Source of the DNA: a virus
Lineage: Duplodnaviria; Heunggongvirae; Uroviricota; Caudoviricetes
IMG/VR virus record: IMGVR_UViG_2563366903_000006
Strand: one strand, 5' to 3'
DNA: 6,514 nucleotides
Shown: positions 3,001 to 6,000 of the stretch, piece after piece
How the letters are laid out: each line of letters begins with the position of its first letter
Numbering within the stretch: position 1 is the first letter of the stretch
Position numbers: made by a program

Positions 3001-6000
3001 TGGATGAGGCCAGGGCAGCGAAACAGAAGGCAGAAGAGGTTGCGACAACCCGCCCGTCGGGAGAAAGCATACCTGGACCGAAAGGTGACAGGGGCGAGCA
3101 AGGACCGGCAGGTCCCACAGGTCCGAAAGGTGAGCGCGGTGAACCCGGACCTCAGGGGCCTGCAGGACAGAAAGGTGAGCAGGGCCTCCGTGGGCTGCAG
3201 GGGGCGACAGGACCTGCGGGAGCAGTGGGGCCCGCAGGCCCACAGGGACCGGCTGGTGCAGCTGGTCCCAAAGGTGATGCAGGCCCGGCAGGGCCACGAG
3301 GTGAAAGGGGACCCGCGGGGGCACAGGGTGTTCCGGGGCCGGTTGGTCCGGCAGGTCCTGCGGGTAAAACGGGGCCACAGGGCCCTGCCGGAGGGCGAGG
3401 ACCGATGGGACTGCCCGGGTTGGATGGTAAAACCGGACCACAGGGACCACAAGGACCACAGGGACCACAAGGGCCAACCGGAAGGCTGGTACCCGGGGAA
3501 ATTTACAGCATCGGAACATACATTATTGCCGCACTAGGCCCGTATATAACCGACATCGGCAGAACCTATCAGCCAGGAGAAACTGTATCGGGTTCACGCC
3601 TTAAGCGATGCGCCCTAATCAAAGACGAAAACGGAAACTATATGAAAGCTAACACCGATGGCATTGACGGCATACTATCCTCAGTTCCGGGCTCATGGAT
3701 GGTGTGTAATGAAATTACGTCGACAAATGATAATGAAAGCATCGGGCTGTTCCAGCGCGCATACTGACAGACAGGAGATGAACATGAATGTGGAAAAAAT
3801 AAGCAATCCGCAATGGGCAGATAAAGATCACACTGCTGTCAATTGCATGGTGAAGTTTGAGCACATTGAGCAGGCGGTTCCTTTCACTGCAACAGCCAGC
3901 GATACCGAAGCATACGGGCGGGATATTTATGCCGCTTGTCTGAGAGGAGAGGCCGGTGAAATTGCAGAATATGTACAGCCATCCATCAGCCCGGAAAAAG
4001 CCAGAGAACTCAAAACCGCCGGGATCAACGCCTGGCGTAATGCGATGGAAGCGGCGAACTACACGTTTGAGCACAATGGGCGTAAATGGGACTACGGGAA
4101 GTCAACGCAGACGCGTCTTGAGCCGTCGGTGGCGGCAGCGAAAGCGGGGAAACTGCCGGAGGCGTTTTTCTGGACGGATGCGGACAATAATGACGTACCG
4201 ATGGACGCTGAAACACTGATTGCTCTGAGTGCTGCTGCAGAGCAGGCGATGTTTACCAAAGGTCTGGAAATTCATGTCAGACAGCGCACGATGAAAAAAG
4301 AGATTGAAGCGCTGGGTGATGCGGAAGCTATACTGGCGTATAAGGTCGGCATGGCTGACAGGTGAAAAAAAGAGGGGCGCTCCAGCCCCTTGCTACAAAG
4401 CTATGGCTAAATAAAGAATACTCAGGTCGAGGAAATAATCTGGCAATGATAATTAAAGGAGATGCAACGGCCTCCTTCACCCCTGTCAAAGATAAAAAAC
4501 TGGGGAGTGCGTGCTCCCCGAGAGCATGATACTTGTGGTTGATAGTTATTTTTATCCGGCGACAAAGATATTGAGATGAGGGCGCGGATGCAATACAGAA
4601 TTTTCGTATTGCATGGTAACTGCTGATTCCTGAAACTGAAAGTCGTCATGAAACTGTAAGCGAAAAAACGGGGGGGACGGCACGCTCCCCAAGGTCATAC
4701 ATGAGATAGTGGTGTTTTTATAGTCGAAAGAATAATTGCATAAAAAGAGTGTAAATTAAACATTCAGGGGATACAGAATTTTCGTAGGCTGAGGGATTGC
4801 TGAAAATAATTTAGTGCGTCCTTCAATGGTCATTCAATGGTCATCAGATTGTGCTGATGTAAACAGTTAAGCACAATTTGATTATTTGACTTTCTTCTTT
4901 TTGTGACTAACTTCACAATTAAAGATGTAACCGTATACAAATTGTTGATGAATAAAGAGACAGCATAAGTGGCAGGCCAGTCGTAATGCGGATATCCCTT
5001 CGCGGACGTGATATCACCGACGTTATAGTAAGGAAATTCCGAAAAACTTCATATTAAAATTCGGAATTTCTTCAGGAGTAAGCTCATGAGAGCGGCGAGA
5101 CATCAGATTTTCTTTATATATCCGATGTTGAACTGTTTTATTTGTATACAGATAATTTTATAGGGTATACCACATGAGCAAGAAATTTACAAAGACTATT
5201 CTTTCATCTGCTGTTGCCGGTCTGTTGTTGGTGAGTGGTGGGGTTGTTGCGGCAACTCCTGATGACGTAAAAATTGGGGACGAGTACATCGTAAAATTTT
5301 ACAAGGATGGGGAAGGTGCCAAGATAGTAGACGCACAAGGAAAAGAGGTTTTAGGTGCTATTAATACAACAACAGGAAGCATCATGGCCTTTAATAAAGA
5401 GGAGGTTGCTAATTTTTTAGCAAAACACGGAGAAAGTAAAACGCAGGATTATTTTAATTCTATTGCGTATCCTGTCTACTTACCTGAGTTAAAGCTGGAA
5501 AATATTAAAAAGTTAAAGGGTACAGACGTTGAAAAAATAAAAAAAGTTAAGGATGATGTATCCAAGATTATTACCTCCAAAACCGCGGCCGATTATAACC
5601 AGGCTGTAAAAAATGGTATGAGTTCTGAAGCTGCACTGACTGTAGCTAAAGATGGTGGTGCAGTCTTAAAAGAATTCAACCGAATTGATTCGGATATCGA
5701 CCAACTGAATAAAGAGACAACTTTTGCGCTTGATGCCGATGGCAATATCACGCTGGATGAAAATCAGGGAAGCGGTGAGCGTTATTCTGTAAAACAAACA
5801 GTCGCAGATATTAAGGCTGACACTACTGTCTACCAGAATAAAGATGGCAGCTATACACTTGACCAGAGCGCACCGGGCAACGTTCGTGTGAATGATGCTG
5901 TTGTCAGCCTCGACAACAGAACCCGCAGTAACACTCAGGCTATCCAGAATCACTCCCGCCAGCTGCAGGAGCATAACGCACGCCTGAACAGCCAGCAGCG

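What the first reader, a model, noticed from the sequence alone, without database searches (positions are those of the whole stretch)
4485..4840. Diverged tandem duplication with a strictly conserved 16-mer and minus-strand terminator-like hairpins: candidate tandem small-RNA genes or regulatory array
Two ~175-bp units (about 4485-4660 and 4655-4840) share only moderate identity yet keep an identical 16-mer ATACAGAATTTTCGTA (4593-4608, 4771-4786). In copy 1 the 16-mer lies inside a palindrome with 8-bp arms. Each unit also has an A6 run followed by a GC hairpin (4494-4519, 4663-4690). On the plus strand this is not a terminator, but on the minus strand it reads as hairpin + U6. A stronger minus-strand terminator abuts the tfa stop (4364-4391). 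Together this suggests leftward transcription of one or two short RNAs of roughly 70-100 nt, each ending at a hairpin/U-tract, with the 16-mer as promoter-proximal operator or conserved RNA segment. Conservation of a 16-mer amid divergence argues for selection. No protein-coding capacity is evident.
Basis: partly seen in the sequence, partly recalled or inferred. Interest (0 to 1): 0.7.

Follow-up and report, generated by a model that had tools for sequence, protein, structure and literature searches.

The report
Stacked reverse terminators upstream of eib
The repeat is real, but it is most likely a duplicated piece of the junction between a prophage tail-fibre gene and an adhesin (eib) cargo gene, carrying extra copies of a backward-facing transcription terminator, rather than a pair of small-RNA genes.

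Summary
Units 4485-4660 and 4655-4840 are a diverged tandem duplication (z about 9). The 16-mer is exact at 4593 and 4771. Three minus-strand terminator-like hairpins sit at 4365-4390, 4494-4519 and 4663-4690.

The window is a lambdoid prophage tail end: tail fibre, DUF4376 tail-fibre-assembly gene (tfa), an 808-bp spacer, then an Eib-type trimeric autotransporter. The spacer occurs only upstream of eib genes, in 27 of 5426 complete E. coli genomes.

An A-run plus GC hairpin directly after the tfa stop codon is common across this phage group. I found 21 hairpins with at least 10 different stems; 17 have the A-run upstream and only 1 has a T-run downstream. T1 and T2 are extra copies, and T2 is preceded by a relic of a tfa 3' end.

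Relatives do not conserve the pair. T2 is degenerate in one haplotype. T2 and 16-mer 1 are deleted in eibA-type loci. A distant homologue carries a diverged 16-mer.

There is no Rfam hit, no shared promoter, no shared RNA fold and no coding signal. My verdict is a mosaic-junction duplication with stacked leftward terminators. An sRNA remains possible but unsupported. Interest is low.

The parts
3658..4365 (+). Tail-fibre assembly gene (DUF4376), context; its stop codon TGA is at 4363-4365
   Evidence: Pfam DUF4376, E = 1.4e-19. Annotated as DUF4376 or tail fibre assembly protein in homologous records.
4365..4390 (-). T0: leftward intrinsic-terminator-like hairpin (AGGGGC/GCCCCT stem) with an A7 run on the + strand, abutting the tfa stop codon
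   Evidence: -11.6 kcal/mol. In L013/L182 the stem is kept while the loop is replaced. The same kind of element follows tfa in related phages.
4485..4660 (.). Repeat unit 1: T1, a spacer body, 16-mer 1, then a tfa-end relic
   Evidence: Alignment with unit 2, z = 9.0. Homologous to the single post-tfa unit of L162-type eib loci, z = 9.6.
4494..4519 (-). T1: A6 run plus GGGGAG/CTCCCC hairpin, a leftward terminator-like site
   Evidence: Present in all orthologues, weakened by a stem mismatch in L013/L182.
4589..4613 (.). Palindrome with 8-bp arms that encloses 16-mer copy 1 (4593-4608)
   Evidence: Deleted in eibA-type loci. One substitution in L155/L013.
4639..4659 (+). Relic of a tfa 3' end (AAAGTCGTCATGAAACTGTAA, reading KVVMKL*) immediately before T2
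   Evidence: Local alignment to tfa 3' ends plus terminators: z = 3.9 (L188), 2.6 (L195) and 2.9 (L222). Translation.
4655..4840 (.). Repeat unit 2: T2, a spacer body, 16-mer 2, then a diverged relic
   Evidence: It exists in two haplotypes that differ across roughly 4630-4770.
4663..4690 (-). T2: A6 run plus GC hairpin, a leftward terminator-like site that is intact only in the window-type haplotype
   Evidence: -9.4 kcal/mol in the window and -12.5 in L005 and PhiR5_2; -2.7 in L014/L013/L179/L180; absent in L001/L177/L181/L182.
4771..4786 (.). 16-mer copy 2, at the left edge of the near-invariant eib upstream block (4771-5173)
   Evidence: one substitution in PhiR5_2.

Best explanation
The array is a recombination or duplication product at the boundary between the tail-fibre module and the eib cargo (moron) of a lambdoid prophage.

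In this phage group the tfa stop codon is followed at once by an A-run and a GC-rich hairpin. Read on the minus strand, that is a Rho-independent terminator. Its likely job (inferred) is to stop leftward transcription, coming from cargo genes, the eib control region or flanking host genes, before it runs antisense into the tail genes.

In this window that 'tfa 3' end + terminator + about 110-nt spacer' module is present once in its normal place (T0) and twice more as a diverged tandem duplication (T1/unit 1 and T2/unit 2).

On this reading the 16-mer is a stretch of the duplicated spacer that has not yet diverged, or was homogenised. The extra terminators are redundant back-ups, not the 3' ends of dedicated genes.

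Shown: the duplication, the terminator-like structure and its orientation, homology to the family-wide post-tfa element, and copy-number variation among relatives. Inferred: that the hairpins terminate in vivo, the insulating role, and the neutrality of the 16-mer.
For: - Context is tail fibre, then DUF4376 tfa, then an 808-bp spacer, then a protein with a YadA anchor. The block occurs only upstream of eib genes (P-EibA AF151091, PhiR5/PhiR12 phages, 27 of 5426 E. coli genomes) and nothing is annotated in it.
- In other eib loci and in non-eib prophages the tfa stop is followed directly by an A-run plus hairpin with unrelated stems.
- Of 21 such hairpins, 17 have at least 6 A in the 10 nt upstream, and only 1 has at least 6 T downstream.
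- The pre-T2 segment aligns to tfa 3' ends including the stop codon (z = 3.9; KVVMKL* against KVGMADR*).
- The L162-type eib loci carry one unit homologous to unit 1 (z = 9.6). The L183 type has none (z < 1.5). All share the downstream block 4841-5173 (z = 14-35).
- Copy number varies. The eibA type has lost about 4587-4708. In the B haplotype T2 has decayed to -2.7 kcal/mol.
- There is no Rfam hit, no plasmid hit, no shared fold and no coding signal.
Against: - The 16-nt exact run is longer than the next-longest run (7). It is unlikely (p = 0.014) under the stricter permutation model, so some constraint on it cannot be excluded.
- The unit 1 minus-strand RNA has an sRNA-like layout: a 5' hairpin, an A/U-rich single strand, then a terminator with U6 (z = -3.0).
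- Segment 4470-4625 is almost invariant in every relative sampled. All these relatives are recent and mosaic, however, so this is weak evidence of selection.
- Why a leftward terminator follows tfa is itself an inference. In L187 the element sits between two + strand genes.
Confidence: 0.55

Rival explanations
1. One or two leftward small RNAs are made here, each ending at T1 or T2. The 16-mer would be a conserved seed or a promoter-proximal element, by analogy with tandem sRNA pairs such as OmrA/OmrB or with prophage-encoded Hfq-binding sRNAs.
For: - The terminators have the right orientation, with U6 tails.
- The unit 1 RNA has a 5' hairpin, an A/U-rich linker and a terminator (z = -3.0).
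- The 16-mer is exact in both units.
- A weak sigma-70-like leftward promoter (TAGTCA-17-AATAAT, 4909-4881) lies to the right of unit 2.
- Lambdoid prophages are known to encode short Hfq-bound sRNAs at cargo sites (PMC4104026).
Against: - No Rfam family matches at E <= 1.
- No promoter-like element is shared by the two units, and promoter-like hits are no more frequent than in shuffles (2 against 2.4).
- The unit 2 RNA folds no better than shuffles.
- T2 has decayed or been deleted, and 16-mer 1 has been deleted, in many relatives.
- The 16-mer is diverged in the L162-type homologue, and its hairpin is not in register there.
- There is no better-than-chance pairing with the eib leader (p = 0.48 and 0.86).
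- L162 and L163 have no leftward promoter-like site at all.
Confidence: 0.22
2. The units form a cis-regulatory array for eib. The partly palindromic 16-mer (TACAGAA-T-TTTCGTA) would be a repeated operator for a DNA-binding regulator acting far upstream of the eib promoter, for example the IbrAB activator system (recalled from Sandt, Hopper and Hill 2002, which I could not read here).
For: - The 16-mer is an imperfect inverted repeat, present twice 178 bp apart.
- Copy 2 marks the left edge of the near-invariant eib upstream block.
- Eib expression is known to be strongly regulated (PMC4352079).
- A CRP-like site is conserved 264-284 nt upstream of the eib start codon in four diverged upstream types, so the region is regulatory.
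Against: - Other eib upstream regions lack the 16-mer even when up to 3 mismatches are allowed.
- The L183-type eib loci lack the unit altogether.
- 16-mer 1 is dispensable in the eibA type.
- No regulator or binding motif is known, and the arrangement upstream of a CRP site about 130-310 bp away is not a recognised architecture.
Confidence: 0.13
3. The minus strand encodes small hydrophobic proteins, in the manner of tandem type I toxin-like genes. The 16-mer would then be conserved because it codes for TKILY.
For: - Both units have a minus-strand ATG-initiated ORF that reads the 16-mer in the same frame, with a 6-nt (in-frame) length difference upstream.
- The B-haplotype ORF has a hydrophobic stretch, ILYLMIVLFALFLC.
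- PhiR5_2 annotates two 49-aa hypothetical proteins here.
Against: - ORF length ranges from 25 to 117 aa among close orthologues, and the start codon sequence was not found in L014, L180 and L182.
- There is no Shine-Dalgarno sequence.
- The ORFs run through the terminators.
- There are no Pfam hits.
- Only 2 weak, near-identical E. coli hits appear among 5.8 billion proteins.
- The hydrophobicity is what a T-rich strand would give anyway.
Confidence: 0.03

Closest known systems
Rho-independent (intrinsic) terminators placed in reverse orientation at the end of an operon (convergent or insulating terminators)
   Same: GC-rich stem of 5-8 bp, loop of 4-8 nt, and a run of at least 5-6 U on the terminated (minus) strand. 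In related phages the stem sequence changes while pairing is kept.
   Different: There are three in a row within 330 bp. Two of them lie inside a duplicated spacer with no gene to terminate. Termination has not been shown experimentally.
Moron / module-boundary mosaicism in lambdoid phages (Juhala et al. 2000, as cited in PMC4104026)
   Same: A cargo gene (eib) with its own control region is inserted after the tail-fibre genes. There are sharp changes of identity at module edges (about 4470, 4630 and 4771), and copy number and indels vary between relatives.
   Different: The classical moron description does not include a tandemly duplicated 'gene-end relic + terminator' unit. The duplication here appears specific to one lineage of eib upstream regions.
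Prophage-encoded Hfq-binding sRNAs and anti-sRNAs (AgvB, AsxR; Tree et al. 2014, PMC4104026)
   Same: They are encoded in lambdoid prophage cargo regions, are short and terminator-ended, and can occur as related copies.
   Different: Those lie at the PR' moron site after Q, are 51-60 nt long and have a conserved 3' region. Here the site is after tfa, no Rfam model matches, and no promoter or expression evidence exists.
Tandem duplicated sRNA genes such as OmrA/OmrB (from my own knowledge)
   Same: Adjacent diverged copies that share an identical short segment and each have a terminator.
   Different: In OmrA/B both copies, their promoters and their conserved ends are maintained across species. 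Here one copy is decayed or deleted in close relatives, and no shared promoter is seen.

Membership tests
Intrinsic (Rho-independent) terminator, minus strand | GC-rich hairpin immediately followed by a U-tract on the transcribed strand | tested here: met
   T0, T1 and T2 were all detected on the minus strand and none on the plus strand. Fold energies are -11.6, -11.6 and -9.4 kcal/mol.
Intrinsic (Rho-independent) terminator, minus strand | Structure maintained by compensatory change among relatives, with the orientation (U-tract side) conserved | tested here: met
   There are 21 post-tfa hairpins with at least 10 different stems. Of these, 17 have an A-rich upstream flank and 1 has a T-rich downstream flank. 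This applies to the post-tfa element as a class; T2 itself decays in one haplotype.
Intrinsic (Rho-independent) terminator, minus strand | Terminates transcription in vivo or in vitro | not testable with these tools
   Needs a terminator-probe assay or 3'-end mapping.
Diverged tandem duplication | Two adjacent units that align significantly better than shuffled sequence | tested here: met
   z = 9.0, with 0 of 500 shuffles reaching the score. Ungapped dot-plot diagonals at offsets of 169-178 are among the best found but do not exceed the shuffled maximum.
Bacterial trans-acting sRNA gene | Own promoter upstream of the RNA | tested here: inconclusive
   No sigma-70-like site is shared by the units. 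The only minus-strand hit is 4909-4881, to the right of unit 2, and the count does not exceed shuffles. Other sigma factors were not tested.
Bacterial trans-acting sRNA gene | Gene (seed, structure, terminator) conserved among relatives | tested here: not met
   T2 is degenerate or deleted and 16-mer 1 is deleted. The 16-mer is diverged in L162. The unit 2 fold has z = +0.35.
Bacterial trans-acting sRNA gene | Match to a described RNA family | tested here: not met
   Rfam 15 gave 0 matches at E <= 1 across the whole window.
Bacterial trans-acting sRNA gene | Detectable transcript | not testable with these tools
   No expression data are available here.
Type I toxin-antitoxin / small-protein gene | Conserved short ORF with a ribosome-binding site | tested here: not met
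   ORFs of 25-117 aa, start not found in some orthologues, no Shine-Dalgarno sequence. Two hits in 5.8 billion proteins. No Pfam hits.

The most novel reading that the evidence does not exclude
The reverse terminator that follows tfa throughout this phage group could mark the 3' end of a family of short leftward prophage RNAs (about 45-210 nt) made from the spacer to its right. In that case the eib lineage would carry two or three tandem paralogues whose shared 16-mer is a seed, possibly transcribed from a CRP-linked divergent promoter next to the eib control region.
Probability: 0.12. Interest if true: 0.6.

Novelty: new member of a known kind. Interest (0 to 1): 0.25.

Why it matters
If my reading is right, this is ordinary phage mosaicism. 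It does show how cargo-gene junctions accumulate duplicated gene-end and terminator modules, and it warns against reading every terminator-ended repeat as an sRNA gene.

Two by-products may be more useful. First, a backward-facing terminator directly after the tail-fibre assembly gene is a conserved feature of this phage group. Second, eib adhesin genes keep a CRP-like site at a fixed distance upstream. That gives a testable handle on why Eib expression responds to growth conditions.

Tried and rejected
- Rfam, whole window, at E <= 1: nothing.
- 16-mer scans of the viral and genome collections: hits outside eib loci are unrelated contexts at about chance frequency. One cluster in Pasteurellaceae/Neisseriaceae shares a different flanking sequence.
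- Further repeat copies across 4840-5173, that is, the idea that the eib promoter region is a third unit: ungapped diagonals do not exceed the shuffled maximum.
- Homology of the units to non-eib post-tfa spacers (L184-L187): z < 2.5.
- Plasmid collection: no match.
- Minus-strand small-protein or type I toxin idea: rejected.
- Pairing of RNA bearing the 16-mer with the eib leader: no better than shuffles.
- The original Sandt and Hill papers could not be read. Later Eib papers say nothing about this upstream region.
- A PHROGs scan failed on a coordinate error and was not repeated.

Full report
**What is in the window**

ORF and Pfam analysis shows a tail fibre gene (1686-3767; collagen and phage-fibre repeats). 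It is followed by a DUF4376 tail-fibre assembly gene (tfa, 3658-4365). After an 808-bp gap comes a 357-aa protein with a YadA membrane anchor (5174-6247).

BLAST places the 808-bp gap upstream of eib genes. These encode the E. coli immunoglobulin-binding trimeric autotransporters. Matches include prophage P-EibA (AF151091) and the PhiR5/PhiR12 phages.

The block is present in only 27 of 5426 complete E. coli genomes, usually in about 3 prophage copies per genome. Nothing is annotated under it. The order J, tail fibre, tfa, spacer, eib is the same in all the loci I fetched.

**Checking the observation**

The two units align with z = 9.0 against dinucleotide shuffles. The 16-mer is exact at 4593 and 4771 and occurs nowhere else in the window.

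Copy 1 of the 16-mer lies in a palindrome with 8-bp arms (4589-4613). Three good minus-strand terminator-like sites are found:
- T0, 4365-4390
- T1, 4494-4519
- T2, 4663-4690

None is found on the plus strand, and shuffles give 0.7. So the description is accurate.

The inference from the 16-mer is weaker than stated. The probability of a 16-nt exact run is 0.014 or 0.55, depending on whether gap columns are counted. Outside eib loci the 16-mer occurs only in unrelated contexts, at about chance frequency.

**What the hairpins are**

Other eib loci with different upstream regions (L162/L156, L163, L183) have the tfa stop codon followed at once by an A-run and a GC hairpin. So do prophages with no eib at all (L184-L187).

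I then surveyed 63 loci found with the tfa protein, which gave 35 distinct post-stop sequences. Among 27 sequences examined (25 representative post-tfa flanks plus the window's T1 and T2 flanks), 21 had strong hairpins, with at least ten unrelated stems. Of these, 17 have at least 6 A in the 10 nt upstream. Only 1 has at least 6 T downstream.

Pairing is therefore kept while the sequence changes, and the asymmetry is conserved. That is the signature of an intrinsic terminator read on the minus strand. T0 is this element in its normal place.

**Why there are three**

- The 21 nt before T2 (4639-4659, AAAGTCGTCATGAAACTGTAA) align to tfa 3' ends including the stop codon (z = 3.9). They translate as KVVMKL*, against KVGMADR* for the real gene.
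- The flank of T1 resembles the same junction by eye; I did not test this for significance.
- L162-type eib loci carry one unit, clearly homologous to unit 1 (z = 9.6). L183-type loci carry none.
- All types share the downstream block 4841-5173 (z = 14-35).

The repeat unit is therefore 'tfa-end relic + terminator + about 110-nt spacer'. The window lineage carries it twice, in addition to T0.

**Conservation among relatives**

An alignment of eleven orthologous spacers shows a mosaic:
- 4366-4470 and about 4630-4770 each exist in two haplotypes.
- 4470-4625 and 4771-5173 are almost invariant.

T2 is a good hairpin only in the window-type haplotype (-9.4 to -12.5 kcal/mol). In the other haplotype it has a 2-nt deletion and folds at -2.7. 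In eibA-type loci the stretch of about 4587-4708, which holds 16-mer 1 and T2, is deleted.

Single substitutions occur in either 16-mer in some relatives. In L162 the equivalent sequence is AAAAGAATATTACCGTA, and a hairpin there is formed with different partners. Neither the pair of units nor the 16-mer is therefore maintained.

**Tests of the small-RNA idea**

- Rfam gives no match at E <= 1.
- The unit 1 minus-strand RNA folds better than shuffles (z = -3.0), through its palindrome and terminator. Unit 2 (z = +0.35) and the T0 segment (z = 0) do not.
- Promoter-like sites are no more frequent than in shuffles. The only leftward one (4909-4881) lies to the right of unit 2, and equivalent regions of L162 and L163 have none.
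- By direct reading I found no -35/-10 pair shared by the two units.
- Pairing of the 16-mer RNA with the eib leader is no better than chance.
- The known prophage anti-sRNAs lie elsewhere, at the PR' site, and are 51-60 nt long (PMC4104026).

An sRNA cannot be excluded without expression data, but nothing beyond the terminators speaks for one.

**Coding**

Minus-strand ORFs read both 16-mers as TKILY, and one haplotype gives a hydrophobic stretch. However:
- ORF length ranges from 25 to 117 aa among near-identical relatives.
- The start codon sequence is not found in some of them.
- There is no Shine-Dalgarno sequence, and the ORFs run through the terminators.
- Only two near-identical E. coli entries match among 5.8 billion proteins.

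The region is not coding.

**Verdict**

The features are real. The best-supported reading is a duplicated module boundary with stacked leftward terminators (confidence about 0.55). The rivals are:
- leftward sRNAs, about 0.22
- a regulatory operator array, about 0.13
- small proteins, about 0.03

This is a new instance of known kinds of element, and interest is low.

**Limits**

All relatives are recent, recombining E. coli prophage sequences, so near-identity says little about selection. Termination and transcription are inferred, not shown.

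Noticed in passing
window 4902-4917: A perfect CRP consensus core, TGTGActaactTCACA, is the only site scoring at least 9 of 10 in the 6.5-kb window. CRP-like sites (9 of 10) lie at nearly the same distance from the eib start codon (264-284 nt) in three other, diverged eib upstream types (L162/L156, L163, L183). 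This suggests that eib expression depends on CRP.
   Followed up: partly
window 5086-5163: A 25-codon upstream ORF (MRAARHQIFFIYPMLNCFICIQIIL*) has an AGGAG 7 nt before its ATG and ends 10 nt before the eib start. By eye, L162 and L183 have upstream ORFs ending ...CIQII(S/-)* at the same place, while L163 has none (sequence). The conserved DNA there (TTTGTATACAGATAAT) could equally be a promoter or an operator.
   Followed up: partly
window 5033-5070: An 11-bp perfect inverted repeat, GAAATTCCGAA-N16-TTCGGAATTTC, is annotated as 'stem_loop' upstream of eibA in AF151091. A TTCGGAAT motif recurs in other eib upstream regions (sequence). Its function is unknown.
   Followed up: no
window 4818-4844: An 11-bp tandem repeat, GTCATTCAATG, is present at 2.5 copies. 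It varies in copy number among orthologues: about half of those aligned have one copy fewer.
   Followed up: partly
window 4843-4882: A 13-bp inverted repeat, ATCAGATTGTGCT-N14-AGCACAATTTGAT (92% complementary), lies just left of the CRP-like site and overlaps the start region of the only leftward promoter-like hit. It may be an operator or an RNA hairpin.
   Followed up: no
loci L188-L267 and L184-L187 (sequence just after the tfa stop codon): A reverse-oriented terminator (A-run plus GC hairpin) directly after the DUF4376 tfa stop codon is a conserved feature of this phage group, with many unrelated stems. In L185/L186 it faces host genes that are transcribed towards the prophage. In L187 it lies between two genes on the same strand.
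   Followed up: partly
window 4366-5173 compared with 5174-6247, in loci L154-L177: The 808-bp upstream block is 88-99% identical in loci whose Eib proteins are only 35-94% identical to the window's. The control region and the adhesin gene therefore have different histories.
   Followed up: no
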